Source: Berkelbacteria bacterium GW2011_GWE1_39_12 (GTDB lineage: Bacteria > Patescibacteriota > UBA1384 > UBA12157). From it: 64,000 nucleotides of DNA. Location of the stretch: assembly GCA_001029735.1 (NCBI GenBank), contig CP011213.1, forward strand, positions 268,087-332,086. Direction: 5' to 3'. Both the position numbers and the translations under genes were made by a program. The notes below the pieces were generated by a model. The model was given only the letters and a program-made list of their open reading frames with translations. It was not told the origin of the DNA and did no database searches. Below are positions 15,998 through 62,649 of this stretch, in pieces; positions within the stretch are counted from its first letter, which is position 1; each line of letters starts with the position of its first letter.

Positions 15998-17284
15998 TTA
16001 TTTAAACTTTTTTAATAAACTCATAAATTTTTCTTCGCCAACTGGCGAATTCTCAAATGGTCCAATGATCGCTAAATTCAAATTCTCCGGTTTCATAAAC
16101 TCATTGGCCAAATTCTTCACATCTTCCTTGGTCACTTTCTGCGTTTGCGCTACGACTTGATCTGGATCATCGATTTTATTCCAGAACATTTCCTGCTCGG
16201 CTAAGAAATGGGCCACTGACATCGATTCTTCTAACCCTAAATATAAATGCCCCTTCATATTTTCTTTAGCCCGTGTCAATTCTTCGTCGGTTATATCTTC
16301 AGTTTTGAGTCTTTCAAACTCTTTCAAAATAACTTCGATCGCCTCTTCGATTCTTTTAATATCAACTCCGGCGCCTACATACCAGAAACCAGTGTCGATA
16401 TAATCCGCCATATCTGACGAAACATAATAGCAAAGACCGCGCTTCTCCCTCACTTCAATAAACAGTCGCGAAGACATTGTTCCGCCCATTAAATTGTTCA
16501 AAACTTTCAAAATTGGACGGCGAGAATCTGTTCTTTTTATCGCCCGAAAACCCAACATAAAATGAGCCTGGTCAGTCTTCTTTTCTTCGATTTTAATCTT
16601 GGGTTCTGTTTGAGCTTCTGTTACTTTTTCTTCGACGACCGTACCCATTTTTGGTAAAGCGCCGAAAACTTTTTCAATTTTCTCATTCCAGGCTTCCCCA
16701 TTACTTCCTGCTGCCACAACGACAATATTTTCCGGGTGGTAAAATTTATTTTTAAATTCAACAAACGTATTGCGATCGAATTTTGTCACAGTCCCCGGCA
16801 CGCCAGTGATCATTCGACCCAACGGCGTGTCACCGTATAGCAGATCCTTCATCACATATTCAATCTGTGCCTGCGGCACATCTTTAATCATGTTTATTTC
16901 TTCTAAAATCACGCCTTTTTCCTTGGTGATCTCCGTTTCGTCAAATTTTGAATGAAGCAACATATCGGATAAAACATCCAGCGCCATATCAAAATGAGAA
17001 CTTTCAGCACGGATATAGAAGCCAGTGTATTCTTCCCCTGTAAAAGCGTTAAAACCTGCCCCAACGGAATCTAACTCTCGAGCAATATCCACTGTATTCG
17101 GACGTTTGTCTGTGCCTTTAAAAAACATGTGTTCTAGAAAATGCGCAATACCATTATTTTCTTTATTTTCGAATCTGGAACCGGTACCAACTAAAATAAA
17201 AAGACTAACCGCTTTGGTATTTTTAAGTGGGGCCGTAATTACTCTTAAACCATTGTCCAGTTTTTTGATTGAATAATCTAACAT
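15998..17284 (-). CDS. M16 family zinc peptidase (insulinase-like)
   Basis: Inverted zincin motif GIAHFLEHMFFKGT (HxxEH), length 428 aa. Confidence 0.85.
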   Translation of the reverse strand: MLDYSIKKLDNGLRVITAPLKNTKAVSLFILVGTGSRFENKENNGIAHFLEHMFFKGTDKRPNTVDIARELDSVGAGFNAFTGEEYTGFYIRAESSHFDMALDVLSDMLLHSKFDETEITKEKGVILEEINMIKDVPQAQIEYVMKDLLYGDTPLGRMITGVPGTVTKFDRNTFVEFKNKFYHPENIVVVAAGSNGEAWNEKIEKVFGALPKMGTVVEEKVTEAQTEPKIKIEEKKTDQAHFMLGFRAIKRTDSRRPILKVLNNLMGGTMSSRLFIEVREKRGLCYYVSSDMADYIDTGFWYVGAGVDIKRIEEAIEVILKEFERLKTEDITDEELTRAKENMKGHLYLGLEESMSVAHFLAEQEMFWNKIDDPDQVVAQTQKVTKEDVKNLANEFMKPENLNLAIIGPFENSPVGEEKFMSLLKKFK

Positions 17285-17451: not shown

Positions 17452-17552
17452 CCTGTCATTCCAGACTGAATGGTAATATCAGATCTGGAATCCAAAAACA
17501 AGGCCATAAACTGGATTCCCGATGTCGGATTACAATCCGACTCGAGAATGAC
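17452..17552. mobile_element. gene-less hairpin element (MITE-like) closed by a ctgtcattc / gaatgacag inverted repeat; related to the TIR modules around the GIY-YIG gene at 62.2-62.6 kb
   Basis: tgtcattccagac..tctggaatcc (17454-17493) parallels tgtcattccggac..tccggaatcc (62563-62600). Internal palindromes ggaatcca..tggattcc and cggatt..aatccg. Confidence 0.45.
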
Positions 17553-17612
17553 AGATTAAATCAATGCTTTAAAACGCACACACCGGCTAAAGCCGGTAGT
17601 ATTTTCTTTTAA

Positions 17613-60904: not shown

Positions 60905-60993
60905 TCTATATCTATTCTACTGCCGTCATTTTTTAATTGCAAAGAATTAAAAAACCCCATATCTTATGATACAGGGCTATAAATAGTTAGCGA

Positions 60994-61188
60994 TCATCTT
61001 TCTCCGAGATGAATGTGTTTCACCGCCGGCGGAAGCTTTGGCTTGCCGTGCGGCGCCGCAACTTTCTTATTCAGATCGCTCACAAAAGCCTTGGTTGCTC
61101 TCGACACAACAAGACATGTTATGACGATCGTCATGAACGCCAATAGAACGAATACGAATACCATCCATCGCTTTACACTTGGTGTCAT
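60994..61188 (-). CDS. small membrane protein (64 aa; GC-rich)
   Basis: AAGGAGG RBS 7 nt upstream. One TM helix. Confidence 0.45.
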   Translation of the reverse strand: MTPSVKRWMVFVFVLLAFMTIVITCLVVSRATKAFVSDLNKKVAAPHGKPKLPPAVKHIHLGER

Positions 61189-61217
61189 CGCTCTTCCTCC
61201 TTTGGATCACCGGCTTA

Positions 61218-61328
61218 TCATTTGATCTGTAAATTCGCTAGATAAACTCCGCAGACAGCAGAAACTATCAAAAGTACTGCTAAAATAATTTCTCCTATCG
61301 TCCATCTGTTTCTCCAAAATTTTCTCAC
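61218..61328 (-). CDS. possible 36-aa TM peptide (GTG start: MRKFWRNRWTIGEIILAVLLIVSAVCGVYLANLQIK)
   Basis: AAGGAGG 7 nt before GTG. Not in ORF track. Speculative. Confidence 0.3.
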   Translation of the reverse strand: MRKFWRNRWTIGEIILAVLLIVSAVCGVYLANLQIK

Positions 61329-61440
61329 CCAAATTCCTCCTTAACGCGTTTTGTTTCCTAAATTGTCAATAAACATTTGTAATAACTTACAACCCTACAA
61401 TATAATTACCCTTTTGTCAAGATTATATACCTTTTTATAG

Positions 61441-61473
61441 CAAAAGCCCCCGAAGCATATAGCCACGGGGGCT
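61441..61473 (-). terminator. agcccccg-N13-cgggggct preceded by A4
   Basis: 8-bp GC stem 3' of the 61494 gene. U-tract short. Confidence 0.4.
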
Positions 61474-61493
61474 CTCTTGGCACATTAGCGCCG

Positions 61494-62009
61494 TTATTCG
61501 AAATGAATGTGATCTTTGTAGATCCTATCGACGTAAACTGTCAGATTAGCCTCGCCATTCTTGCTGAAAGTCGCCGCAGTTGAAACTTGGTCTGATTTTC
61601 CCCAATTCTGGTGATTCTTAACTTGGCCAGTGATTGTAATTTCCTCTCCTGGATTTCCAGTCAGAATAAGGCAAAACGAAGATCTTGCCCTCTCTGGGAG
61701 GAGCAATAGCATCAAACCCGGATAGATACATGATTGAGATGGAAATTGCCCCATTCTATCACCAACGGGTTCAATTGTGACCAAGACGCGCTGGACTCTA
61801 CCTTTTATCGTTAATTCCAAACTCGGTCTCTGCGTAACCGACGGGTGAAGCACAATCTTCTCGTTTTTCTTCGCTTGAAGAGCGTGGTCTGCGATCCGAT
61901 TAATCATTACCGGAATGACAACAACCAGTAATATCATAACAATCAAGACCCCGATTGTACCTTCTTTATTGGTAATGCCACGATTGTTTCCAAAACCAGA
62001 TTTTCTCAT
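61494..62009 (-). CDS. hypothetical membrane-anchored protein (171 aa; GC-rich)
   Basis: ORF with N-terminal TM. No family recognised. Confidence 0.45.
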   Translation of the reverse strand: MRKSGFGNNRGITNKEGTIGVLIVMILLVVVIPVMINRIADHALQAKKNEKIVLHPSVTQRPSLELTIKGRVQRVLVTIEPVGDRMGQFPSQSCIYPGLMLLLLPERARSSFCLILTGNPGEEITITGQVKNHQNWGKSDQVSTAATFSKNGEANLTVYVDRIYKDHIHFE

Positions 62010-62185
62010 TTAGATGCCTCCTACATTTGTCTGATTTTTTTGTGTTTCTGGCAATCTTCCGCCAAATTGTTAACACAAAACTATACCCCAAAAACGTCGC
62101 TTTGTCAAGACAGATAGAGCATTAAATCTTGAATTTATCTCAAAGAATCAATTATAGATACCGGATCCGGTTGCCAACCGATCCG

Positions 62186-62641
62186 GTATGACATTTTATC
62201 TAAAAACTTGTCATCCCGGACCGGCTGCAGCAGGATCCGGGATCCAGTAGACTTGTCATCCAGGGCTTGACTTGGGATCCAGATCTTCCCAGCCCGGATT
62301 ATCTTTTTCTATTAGTTCTATCTTCCATATCCTTTCCCAATTTTTGAGCTGTTTTTCTCTTTGAAGAGCTGATTTTATGTCATTGGTTTCTTCAAAATAA
62401 ACTAGACGGTTCACATTATATTTGCCGGTAAATCCATCTGAAGTTTTAGTCTTGTGTTGATAAATTCGCTTTGAGAGATCGGATGTGACTCCAATATACA
62501 GAGTACCGTTTCTTTTACTGGCCATGATGTAAACATAGTAATGTTTCATGGTTCTTTCTTTTGTCATTCCGGACAGGTCGACGCATGATCCGGAATCCAG
62601 GATAGATACCGGATCCTGCTTTCAGCCGGTCCGGCATGACA
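62186..62641. mobile_element. GIY-YIG nuclease gene flanked by ~35-bp terminal inverted repeats (TTGTCATsCCGGACCGGCTG....CAGGATCCGG) plus extra TGTCATyCC motif copies
   Basis: Left TIR 62207-62241 cttgtcatcccggaccggctgcagcaggatccggg. Right TIR (reverse complement of 62607-62641) attgtcatgccggaccggctgaaagcaggatccgg, about 31/35 identical. Additional motif copies at 62186 (rc), 62252, 62560. Confidence 0.55.
62256..62549 (-). CDS. GIY-YIG nuclease family protein (UPF0213/COG2827-like)
   Basis: MKHYYVYIMASKRNGTLYIGVTSDLSKRIYQHKTK...NRLVYFEE...AL..EKQLK.W (GIY..YIG..R..QH..E..N). Alternative ATG at 62567 lies inside the repeat motif. Confidence 0.8.
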   Translation of the reverse strand: MKHYYVYIMASKRNGTLYIGVTSDLSKRIYQHKTKTSDGFTGKYNVNRLVYFEETNDIKSALQREKQLKNWERIWKIELIEKDNPGWEDLDPKSSPG

Positions 62642-62649
62642 ATTCAGTA

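What the first reader, a model, noticed from the sequence alone, without database searches (positions are those of the whole stretch)
62186..62641. GIY-YIG nuclease gene bounded by ~35-bp terminal inverted repeats: a compact transposon-like unit
The 97-aa GIY-YIG (COG2827-type) gene at 62256-62549 sits inside two ~35-bp inverted copies of TTGTCATsCCGGACCGGCTGnnnnCAGGATCCGG (left 62207-62241, right rc of 62607-62641, about 31/35 identical). Three further TGTCATyCC(G)G motif copies lie just inside and outside (62186 rc, 62252, 62560). Each motif is itself the 5' arm of a local hairpin (atcccgga..tccgggat, attccgga..tccggaat). The local GC content is higher than the surroundings. This architecture of TIRs, small nuclease gene and nested palindromic modules is that of a minimal mobile element. 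To my knowledge GIY-YIG COG2827 genes are not routinely annotated as transposable units.
Basis: partly seen in the sequence, partly recalled or inferred. Interest (0 to 1): 0.7.

Follow-up and report, generated by a model that had tools for sequence, protein, structure and literature searches.

The report
Ssn nuclease gene with cognate hairpins
This small nuclease gene, wrapped in inverted hairpin repeats, is a new CPR-bacterium member of the Ssn family published in 2025 (single-strand DNA cutters that recognise their own flanking hairpins), and comparison with related genomes suggests the gene-plus-hairpin block has moved as a unit.

Summary
A 97-aa single-domain GIY-YIG gene (62256-62549, minus strand) lies among five roughly 30-40-nt hairpin units of the form TGTCAT-stem-loop-stem-ATC.

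The system is already published as the Ssn family (Chenal et al. 2025, Nat Commun, PMC11893778). Ssn proteins are site-specific single-stranded-DNA nucleases whose genes are flanked by their own hairpin targets (NTS/SRM). That paper already notes the architecture is "identical to" an insertion sequence.

The window protein is 59% identical to the Neisseria gonorrhoeae SsnA ortholog and keeps the residues matching SsnA's tested Y6, Y17 and E64. Its hairpins are long-loop variants that the published SRM pattern misses (0 hits).

The host is Berkelbacteria GW2011_GWE1_39_12.

Mobility is partly supported:
- Five of seven syntenic relatives have no hairpin between the two Wzy_C genes. One (L088) is ambiguous, and one has only a gene-less hairpin doublet.
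- A second gene-less doublet lies at 17454-17553.
- In related genomes, 376-392-bp blocks share homology that ends at the outer TGTCAT/ATGACA.
- One such block sits in a site that is empty in a relative, flanked by a 27-nt duplication.

Verdict: new member of a known kind. The mechanism of movement is unproven.

The parts
62605..62642 (-). SRM hairpin unit E (TTGTCAT-GCCGGACC..GGATCCGGT-ATC). Its target strand is the gene's sense strand.
   Evidence: Repeat I2/D1. ssDNA fold -8.7 kcal/mol, z=-3.2. 95% identical to an SRM in L093.
62561..62600 (+). SRM hairpin unit D (TTGTCAT-TCCGGA..TCCGGA-ATCCAG). It lies 11 nt upstream of the start codon, tail-to-tail with E, forming a doublet. The alternative ATG at 62567 lies inside it.
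   Evidence: ssDNA fold z=-2.3. The strain variant L005 has G->A in its GTC at 62563.
62256..62549 (-). ssn gene: 97-aa single-domain GIY-YIG nuclease. The conserved domain ends at L90. Residues 91-97 and the TGA stop are encoded by unit C.
   Evidence: PF01541 E=1.2e-17. 59% identical to the N. gonorrhoeae SsnA ortholog. Y7, Y18, R28 and H32 are invariant and E65 nearly so.
62253..62282 (+). SRM unit C, degenerate short-loop type (TTGTCAT-CCAGGGCTTGACTTGGG-ATCCAG). It overlaps the 3' end and the stop codon of ssn.
   Evidence: No stable hairpin (z=+0.8). The intact counterpart in L001 is CCCGGGCTTGACCCGGG.
62208..62247 (+).
   Evidence: ssDNA fold -10.3 kcal/mol, z=-2.6. 92% identical to the unit just upstream of the ssn gene in L093.
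62157..62194 (-). SRM hairpin unit A (ATGTCAT-ACCGGATCGG..CCGGATCCGGT-ATC), head-to-head with B.
   Evidence: ssDNA fold -12.5 kcal/mol, z=-5.5. The second SNP against L005 lies 3 nt 5' of its TGTCAT, at 62196.
17454..17553 (.). Gene-less tail-to-tail SRM doublet (TGTCAT-hairpin-ATCCA, 19 nt, TGGAT-hairpin-ATGACA), about 170 nt upstream of the start of the M16 peptidase gene (15998-17284, minus strand).
   Evidence: ssDNA folds z=-2.8 and -4.9.
60905..62649 (.). 1745-bp stretch between two Wzy_C genes. In seven related metagenome loci nothing else from this stretch lies between the two genes (spacer about 5-150 nt). It holds all five SRM units, ssn, and two ORFs without Pfam matches (171 aa at 61494-62009, 64 aa at 60994-61188).
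   Evidence: tblastn synteny. Spacer sequences.

Best explanation
This is an Ssn-family locus: a roughly 90-aa stand-alone GIY-YIG nuclease gene embedded among copies of its own recognition element (an SRM). Each SRM is an oriented hairpin, 5'-(T)GTC | AT-stem-loop-stem-AT | C.

The mechanism is inferred by homology to Neisseria SsnA. When DNA is single-stranded (during replication, repair, uptake or transfer), the protein binds the folded hairpin on the one strand that reads GTCAT...ATC. It then hydrolyses that strand a few nucleotides 5' of GTC. Double-stranded DNA, RNA and the opposite strand are not cut.

At this locus units E and A would be cut on the gene's sense strand, and D and B on the other strand. 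C is decayed.

The gene plus its flanking hairpins behaves as a discrete TIR-bounded cassette of about 390-450 bp that was gained at this chromosomal site. Tail-to-tail hairpin doublets are its gene-less form.

Shown here: family membership, hairpin covariation, gene-hairpin linkage across phyla, and insertion polymorphism. Inferred: the cleavage specificity of this ortholog, and any role in moving the cassette or in restricting incoming SRM-bearing single-stranded DNA.
For: Family membership:
- GIY-YIG domain.
- 59% identity over 85 aa to the N. gonorrhoeae SsnA ortholog, pairwise E=1e-37.
- Y7, Y18 and E65 have the same spacing as the experimentally essential Y6, Y17 and E64.

Hairpins:
- Four of five units, and the units of both doublets (window 17454-17553 and L086), fold as ssDNA.
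- 94% of cells are paired, 5 of 12 pairs carry compensatory changes, and 0 of 500 shuffles reach the observed score.
- GTCAT and ATC are invariant, matching the positions the paper found critical for cutting and binding.

Linkage:
- 50/79 loci have TGTCAT upstream and 59/77 have ATGACA downstream, against a 4-5% background.
- The SRM type travels with the gene lineage into unrelated contexts (L093).

Gain and loss:
- In seven syntenic loci nothing else from the 1745-bp window stretch lies between the two Wzy_C genes. Five show no hairpin there, L088 is ambiguous, and L086 has only a doublet.

Published biochemistry and the architecture statistics come from PMC11893778.
Against: - The published degenerate SRM pattern finds nothing in the window, although it finds 6 sites at the gonococcal locus. 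The hairpins here have 27-31 nt between GTCAT and ATC, against about 16 in NTS. Recognition by this ortholog is therefore an extrapolation.
- The N. meningitidis SsnA sequence itself and CDD cd10448 could not be queried.
- Only 7 units are visible in 64 kb, so a genome-wide repeat family is not shown.
- The insertion relative to other genomes is 1.7 kb and includes two unrelated ORFs, not just the cassette.
Confidence: 0.8

Rival explanations
1. Autonomous mobile element. The TGTCAT...ATGACA cassette is a minimal insertion-sequence-like element whose only protein, the Ssn nuclease, initiates its movement by nicking single strands just outside each terminal hairpin. Host repair or recombination completes the move. 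Tail-to-tail hairpin doublets are its MITE/REPIN-like deletion derivatives or landing sites. This overlaps with the best explanation and differs only in claiming present-day selfish mobility.
For: - Blocks of 376-392 bp in L006, L015, L016 and L023 are 84-88% identical. Homology stops at the outer TGTCAT/ATGACA, and the immediately adjoining sequence is not homologous.
- The L006 block is absent from the orthologous L023 site, where 27 nt align to both sides of the block.
- L023 has gene-less doublets that L006 lacks. They retain about 20 nt of the ssn 5' UTR.
- Far from genes, 17 tail-to-tail pairs are seen against 0 head-to-head.
- Paralogs within one MAG share only the gene plus 30-60 nt of flank.
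- The closest homologs (72-75% aa) sit in other genomic contexts.
Against: - GIY-YIG enzymes hydrolyse DNA and are not known to form covalent intermediates or transfer strands (own knowledge).
- I saw no target duplication at the window locus or its doublets when reading their flanks.
- Copies are diverged (77-90% nt), and no near-identical copies in different contexts were found.
- In Nitrospirales and deltaproteobacterial MAGs the gene is syntenic over 85-95% identical flanks.
- P0018 occurs in many samples but a single context.
Confidence: 0.4
2. Domesticated host function, as proposed for Neisseria. [quoted passage not shown] This modulates recombination around SRM-flanked genes. The hairpins around ssn itself are then a legacy of its origin.
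For: - In N. meningitidis, an ssnA knockout raises transformation by NTS-bearing DNA about 5-fold, and mutated NTS abolishes the effect.
- NTS clusters lie next to surface and membrane protein genes. Here the locus lies in a cell-envelope glycan cluster (Wzy_C, glycosyltransferases, PMT).
- The gene is syntenic and stable in several lineages.
Against: - Competence was not examined in this organism.
- Only two SRM sites are seen in 64 kb, far fewer than the hundreds of copies in Neisseria.
- It does not explain the block-wise insertion polymorphism.
Confidence: 0.3
3. Classical homing endonuclease. The nuclease makes a double-strand break at an empty allele and the gene is copied in by homologous repair, as for I-TevI-type GIY-YIG enzymes.
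For: GIY-YIG fold. Weak sub-threshold match to the group I intron endonuclease model TIGR01453 (21.8 bits against a cut-off of 56). Filled and empty sites exist.
Against: - There is no DNA-binding domain; the protein has about 90 aa of catalytic domain only.
- SsnA does not cut dsDNA.
- There is no intron or intein context.
- The flanking 27-nt duplication in L006 is not expected from homing.
Confidence: 0.07
4. The hairpins are ordinary regulatory or REP-like elements (terminators, mRNA stabilisers) unrelated to the nuclease, and their position next to the gene is coincidental.
For: They are intergenic palindromes. One lies in the 5' leader and one overlaps the stop codon.
Against: - No terminator-like site was found, and the hairpins lack T tracts.
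- No Rfam family matches at the locus.
- Gene-hairpin association is 63-77% against 4-5% across phyla, with conserved orientation.
- SsnA does not interact with RNA, and binding to the hairpin has been shown directly for homologs.
Confidence: 0.03

Closest known systems
SsnA / NTS (SRM) system of Neisseria meningitidis and the Ssn family (Chenal et al. 2025, PMC11893778)
   Same: - Single-domain GIY-YIG protein of about 94 aa, 59% identical to the gonococcal ortholog.
- Same catalytic Tyr/Tyr/Glu positions.
- Gene flanked by oriented hairpins with invariant GTCAT 5' and ATC 3' of the stem.
- Tail-to-tail doublets upstream of the gene in both.
   Different: - The host is a CPR bacterium (Berkelbacteria, 0.9-Mb genome).
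- The hairpins have long structured loops and a CCGGA stem, and are not found by the published SRM pattern.
- Few copies are visible.
- One unit is fused to the 3' end of the reading frame.
- No biochemical data exist for this ortholog.
REP / RAYT (REPIN-RAYT) systems
   Same: A small nuclease gene flanked by inverted copies of the hairpin repeat it recognises as ssDNA. The repeats are also dispersed as inverted doublets. The gene is often single-copy and syntenic.
   Different: RAYTs are HUH/Y1 transposase homologs that form covalent intermediates. This protein is a hydrolytic GIY-YIG nuclease with no sequence relation to them.
IS200/IS605 insertion sequences
   Same: A very small element with subterminal hairpins recognised on one strand of ssDNA.
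   Different: IS200/IS605 use a Y1 HUH transposase and have asymmetric ends on the same strand. Here the ends are inverted, so the predicted cuts fall on opposite strands, and no strand-transfer activity is known.
MITEs such as neisserial Correia elements and NIMEs (dRS3-flanked repeats)
   Same: Short TIR-bounded gene-less units show insertion polymorphism between related genomes. The doublets here look like internal-deletion derivatives of the gene-bearing block.
   Different: Classical MITEs are mobilised in trans by DDE transposases and make short fixed target duplications. None is seen at the window doublets.
UPF0213 / YhbQ (COG2827) proteins, e.g. BH0048 (PDB 1zg2)
   Same: Stand-alone GIY-YIG domain of similar length.
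   Different: Only distantly related (E=1.3e-3). No hairpin association is known to me.

Membership tests
Ssn nuclease family (Chenal et al. 2025) | BLASTP similarity to Neisseria SsnA (paper's rule: E<1e-10, at least 75% of the query covered) | tested here: met
   Against the N. gonorrhoeae ortholog (L142:598-870): 59% identity over 85 of about 94 residues, pairwise E=1e-37. tblastn E=9e-27 in 7.3 Gb. The N. meningitidis sequence CAX49033.1 itself was not available.
Ssn nuclease family (Chenal et al. 2025) | Single GIY-YIG domain, under 150 aa, no extra DNA-binding domain | tested here: met
   97 aa. PF01541 covers residues 10-80. Conservation ends at L90.
Ssn nuclease family (Chenal et al. 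2025) | Catalytic residues equivalent to Y6, Y17 and E64, whose mutation abolishes cutting | tested here: met
   Y7 and Y18 are invariant and E65 is conserved in at least 90% of 27 homologs. Spacing is identical to the numbering of the 94-aa Neisseria protein.
Ssn nuclease family (Chenal et al. 2025) | Best CDD model is cd10448 (GIY-YIG_unchar_3) | not testable with these tools
   CDD is not among the libraries. NCBIfam has no specific model.
Ssn nuclease family (Chenal et al. 2025) | SRM on both sides of the gene within 500 bp, by the published pattern HGTCWYN(0-2)YYVSBRHN(0-5)WNVSBRGN(0-2)RNCYNB | tested here: not met
   0 hits in the 64-kb window. The same script finds 6 at the gonococcal ssnA locus.
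Ssn nuclease family (Chenal et al. 2025) | Flanking 20-50-nt hairpin repeats with an oriented conserved 5' GTC(A/T) and a C after the palindrome (the paper's descriptive definition) | tested here: met
   Units E and D lie upstream, C, B and A downstream. GTCAT and ATC are invariant. Hairpins are supported by folding and covariation.
Ssn nuclease family (Chenal et al. 2025) | Binds and cuts only ssDNA, one strand only, a few nt 5' of the hairpin | not testable with these tools
   This needs purified protein and oligonucleotide assays.
Insertion sequence / transposon | Terminal inverted repeats bounding the gene | tested here: met
   E versus B matches in about 33 of 37 positions by eye on the aligned units. 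Outer TGTCAT/ATGACA ends are present in TIR orientation in 40 of 76 related loci.
Insertion sequence / transposon | Encodes a recombinase of a known transposase class (DDE, HUH, serine, tyrosine) | tested here: not met
   The only ORF is a GIY-YIG hydrolase.
Insertion sequence / transposon | Presence/absence polymorphism at orthologous sites | tested here: met
   Window site against seven syntenic loci. L006 against L023.
Insertion sequence / transposon | Target-site duplication | tested here: inconclusive
   I saw none at the window cassette or its doublets when reading the flanks. A 27-nt duplication flanks the L006 block. This is a single case and unusually long.
Insertion sequence / transposon | Several near-identical copies within one genome | tested here: inconclusive
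   Only 64 kb of this genome was seen, holding one gene copy. Paralogs in other MAGs are 77-81% identical.
REP-RAYT / REPIN system | Associated gene is an HUH Y1 (IS200-like) transposase homolog | tested here: not met
   The only Pfam hits are the GIY-YIG domain and a weak related T5orf172 match.
GIY-YIG homing endonucleases (I-TevI type) | Nuclease domain joined to a separate DNA-binding domain; intron, intein or phage free-standing context | tested here: not met
   Single domain. Chromosomal site between envelope-glycan genes. TIGR01453 scores 21.8 bits against a cut-off of 56.

The most novel reading that the evidence does not exclude
The Ssn gene plus its terminal hairpins is a genuinely mobile cassette of about 380-450 bp, smaller than any insertion sequence known to me. 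It would be moved by a 90-aa hydrolytic ssDNA nickase together with host repair functions. Tail-to-tail hairpin doublets would be its non-autonomous (MITE/REPIN-like) form. This would be a mode of DNA mobility that uses none of the known transposase chemistries.
Probability: 0.4. Interest if true: 0.75.

Novelty: new member of a known kind. Interest (0 to 1): 0.4.

Why it matters
The kind of system is known, so the locus itself is not a discovery. It matters in three smaller ways.

1. It places an Ssn/SRM pair in a 0.9-Mb CPR genome, with a hairpin variant that the published search pattern cannot see. The reported figure that 71% of Ssn genes have SRMs nearby is therefore probably an underestimate.
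2. Each new cognate pair is a candidate sequence-specific ssDNA nuclease for use as a tool.
3. The comparative series found here gives concrete loci for testing the open question the 2025 paper raised but did not address: whether NTS-ssn-NTS units are, or were, mobile elements. The series consists of an empty site, a hairpin-doublet-only site and a gene-bearing site, together with blocks whose homology ends at the hairpin termini and one filled/empty pair with a 27-nt duplication.

Tried and rejected
- Terminator or promoter role: no terminator-like site, and promoter-like hits are not informative.
- Known RNA family: Rfam finds only two tRNAs elsewhere in the window.
- Literature for GIY-YIG combined with 'repetitive extragenic palindromic', REPIN or MITE gave nothing relevant. 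COG2827/UPF0213/YhbQ also gave nothing relevant. The Ssn paper surfaced only through the dRS3 link. No follow-up paper is in the library, and no supplements are held.
- Multi-context test with P0018, a protein seen on 86 contigs: it occupies a single context in every sample, so it gives no evidence of movement.
- Search for recent transposition (at least 88% identical genes in unrelated flanks): most such pairs are syntenic orthologs. Only the L006/L015/L016/L023 group and L035/L041 have unrelated flanks.
- The window-type long-loop hairpin in viral contigs: 0 matches.
- Target duplication at the window cassette and its doublets: none seen when reading the flanks.
- The idea that ATGAC, 27 nt upstream of the second Wzy_C gene, is a remnant hairpin end is too weak to claim.
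- L088 spacer: an 11-nt inverted repeat containing CGTCAT but no SRM hairpin. Left unresolved.

Full report
**What is in the sequence**

On the minus strand, 62256-62549 encodes a 97-aa protein with a single GIY-YIG domain (PF01541, E=1.2e-17). Five copies of one repeat surround it.

Written on the strand that reads TGTCAT first, each unit is (T)TGTCAT, then a stem (yCCGGA...), a loop, the return stem (...TCCGGr), then ATC(CAG). In gene orientation the order is:

| Unit | Coordinates | Orientation | Position |
|---|---|---|---|
| E | 62642-62605 | + | outer upstream |
| D | 62600-62561 | - | ends 11 nt before the ATG |
| gene | 62549-62256 | | |
| C | 62282-62253 | - | overlaps the 3' end of the gene |
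| B | 62247-62208 | - | downstream |
| A | 62194-62157 | + | outer downstream |

They match in about 33 of 37 aligned positions with one loop indel, counted by eye on the alignment.
- The 12-mer TGTCATYCCGGA with at most one mismatch occurs 6 times in the window, against 0.25 expected.
- A structural scan (GTCAT, stem of at least 5, loop, stem, ATCC) finds 4 sites, against 0-2 in shuffles.
- A, B, D and E fold as single-stranded DNA hairpins (z = -2.3 to -5.5). C does not. C supplies the last seven codons (DPKSSPG) and the TGA stop. The conserved protein ends at L90.
- High G+C is confined to the repeats.

**The same hairpin away from the gene**

At 17454-17553, about 170 nt upstream of the start of an M16 peptidase gene, there is a gene-less pair. 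It reads TGTCAT-hairpin-ATCCA, 19 nt, TGGAT-hairpin-ATGACA, with both hairpins well folded.

An alignment of 11 units from the window and relatives has GTCAT and ATC invariant. Across it, 94% of stem cells are paired, and 5 of 12 pairs carry compensatory changes, for example CCGG/CCGG against CCAG/CTGG. None of 500 shuffles reaches the observed score.

**What it is**

About 8000 homologs were scored, typically 65-77% identical across many phyla. Many carry N- or C-terminal extensions such as DPGSSPG, DSRLRGND, WIPDQVGDD or MLCHSRESGNPE. My hand back-translation of one of them (MLCHSRESGNPE) gives TGTCAT-hairpin-ATCCAG, so they look like read-throughs of the flanking hairpins.

In 80 loci from GTDB genomes, TGTCAT lies within 150 nt upstream in 50 of 79 and ATGACA within 150 nt downstream in 59 of 77. 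The background is 4-5% per 150 nt. Both are present in TIR orientation in 40 of 76, and in the reverse orientation in 9 of 76.

This is the system published by Chenal et al. 2025 (Nat Commun 16:2388, PMC11893778):

- The Ssn family consists of single-domain GIY-YIG proteins (CDD cd10448).
- N. meningitidis SsnA (94 aa) binds the hairpin repeat NTS (CGTCATTCCCGCGMAVGCGGGAATCYRG, which contains dRS3) only as ssDNA and on one strand only.
- It cuts a few nucleotides 5' of the NTS.
- The three bases before the palindrome matter for cutting, and the C after it matters for binding.
- The Y6A, Y17A and E64A mutants are inactive.
- A knockout raises transformation by NTS-bearing DNA about 5-fold.
- 71% of homolog genes have an SRM nearby, and 42% have one on both sides.
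- The Discussion states that NTS-ssnA-NTS is architecturally identical to an IS. It draws the REP/RAYT parallel and a domestication hypothesis. Mobility was not tested.

**Membership**

PLSDB happens to hold N. gonorrhoeae chromosomes labelled as plasmids. The ssnA ortholog there (L142:598-873) reproduces the paper's numbering (94 codons, Y6, Y17, E64). It is 59% identical to the window protein over 85 residues.

Window residues Y7, Y18, R28 and H32 are invariant and E65 nearly so. The solved UPF0213 protein 1zg2 is only a distant match (E=1.3e-3).

The published degenerate SRM pattern finds 6 sites in the 1.5-kb gonococcal locus but none in the 64-kb window. It finds sites in only 7 of the 80 related loci. 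The window hairpins have 27-31 nt between GTCAT and ATC and a structured loop. They are a variant of the SRM that the published pattern misses.

The host is Berkelbacteria bacterium GW2011_GWE1_39_12. Its GroEL and H+-PPase match AKM82145.1 and AKM82164.1 exactly, on a 915-kb contig. The window is ordinary chromosome carrying DnaE, GltX, GroEL and PyrG.

**Is it mobile?**

Evidence for:

1. Seven metagenome loci share the two Wzy_C genes that flank the locus, at 47-75% aa identity.
   - In all seven, nothing else from the 1745-bp window stretch lies between the two genes.
   - Five show no hairpin there, and L088 is ambiguous.
   - The closest (L086, 75%) has only a tail-to-tail doublet in a spacer of about 130 nt, at the place where the window has E/D.
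   - The window therefore carries a 1745-bp extra stretch: five hairpins, ssn, and two ORFs without Pfam matches.
2. The closest Ssn homologs (72-75%) lie in other genomic contexts. L093 nevertheless has hairpins 92-95% identical to window units B and E, while the genes are 74% identical at the DNA level.
3. In L006, L015, L016 and L023 (MAGs labelled Peribacteria, Patescibacteria or Gracilibacteria; in-frame TGA codons suggest UGA is read as sense), the gene-plus-hairpin blocks are 376-392 bp and 84-88% identical. Homology stops at the outer TGTCAT and ATGACA, and the immediately adjoining sequence is not homologous.
4. L006 and L023 are collinear at about 80% identity around the L006 block, but L023 lacks it. 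A 27-nt stretch at the start of a reverse-transcriptase-like ORF aligns to both sides of the L006 block. L023 has its own block 2 kb away.
5. L023 has gene-less doublets that L006 lacks, one of them inside that ORF. These keep about 20 nt of the ssn 5' leader next to the left hairpin, as deletion derivatives would.
6. Far from the gene, hairpins pair tail-to-tail 17 times and head-to-head 0 times.

Evidence against:

- The enzyme is a hydrolase with no known strand-transfer activity.
- I saw no duplication at the window cassette or its doublets when reading their flanks.
- No near-identical copies were found in different contexts.
- In Nitrospirales and deltaproteobacterial MAGs the gene is syntenic within 85-95% identical flanks.
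- P0018 has one context across many samples.

**Conclusion**

The locus is a new member of the Ssn/SRM kind. The most likely mechanism is the published one. The protein recognises the folded hairpin on the GTCAT strand of single-stranded DNA and nicks a few nucleotides 5' of it. For this ortholog that mechanism is inferred, not shown.

It gains comparative support here but remains unproven, and how a nickase alone could move the cassette is unknown.

One small observation fits activity at the predicted cut sites. The only two differences in 3626 bp between the window and a second assembly of the same locus (L005, 99.945% identical) lie in the G of GTC in unit D and 3 nt 5' of TGTCAT in unit A.

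Noticed in passing
window 17454-17553: Gene-less tail-to-tail pair of the same hairpin class, about 170 nt upstream of the start of the M16 peptidase gene (15998-17284). In L001 an ssn gene lies upstream of an M16 peptidase that is 44% identical.
   Followed up: partly
window 62563 and 62196 (compared with L005): The only two differences in 3626 bp between the window and the ENA contig L005 both fall at hairpin 5' ends. One is the G of GTC in unit D. The other is 3 nt 5' of TGTCAT in unit A, about where SsnA-type cutting is predicted. With only two differences this is anecdotal.
   Followed up: partly
window 60905-62649: A 1745-bp stretch between two Wzy_C paralogs. In seven syntenic metagenome loci nothing else from it lies between the two genes. 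Besides ssn it holds a 171-aa ORF with a hydrophobic N-terminus (61494-62009) and a 64-aa ORF (60994-61188), neither with a Pfam match.
   Followed up: partly
L006:2096-2550 and L023:7895-7921: A 383-bp ssn block in L006 is inserted at the 5' end of a reverse-transcriptase-like ORF, with a 27-nt duplication. The downstream copy supplies a new start codon. The L023 site is empty.
   Followed up: yes
L023:7515-7620 and L023:8261-8430: Gene-less hairpin doublets absent from the orthologous L006 positions, one of them inside the RT-like ORF. They retain about 20 nt of the ssn 5' leader, including a TATAAT-like stretch.
   Followed up: yes
L019, L023, L024, L034, L077 (flanks of the ssn gene): Tandem truncated 'heads' (TGTCAT plus about 18 nt of half-stem), repeated 2-4 times outside the complete terminal hairpin and mirrored on the other side as repeated ...ATGACA. 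Unexplained.
   Followed up: no
L006, L015, L016, L018, L023: In-frame TGA codons at conserved positions of both the ssn and the RT-like ORFs suggest these MAGs read UGA as a sense codon, which I take to be genetic code 25.
   Followed up: no
L142 (NZ_CP119142.1:1881119-1882573): PLSDB lists 2.17-Mb N. gonorrhoeae chromosomes as plasmids. In this strain the ssnA ortholog has no in-frame ATG (ATGCACGG then a frame change), so it may be frameshifted. Six NTS sites surround it, including two tail-to-tail doublets.
   Followed up: partly
L096-L141 (IMG/VR contigs): 46 predicted viral contigs encode homologs (35-85% identity over the best matching segment), many at contig ends. It is unclear whether these are phage genes or host flanks of prophage calls.
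   Followed up: no
L088:5285-5420: The spacer between the two Wzy_C genes holds an 11-nt inverted repeat (GAATGACGAAA...TTTCGTCATTC) about 55 nt apart. It contains CGTCAT but no SRM-type hairpin.
   Followed up: no
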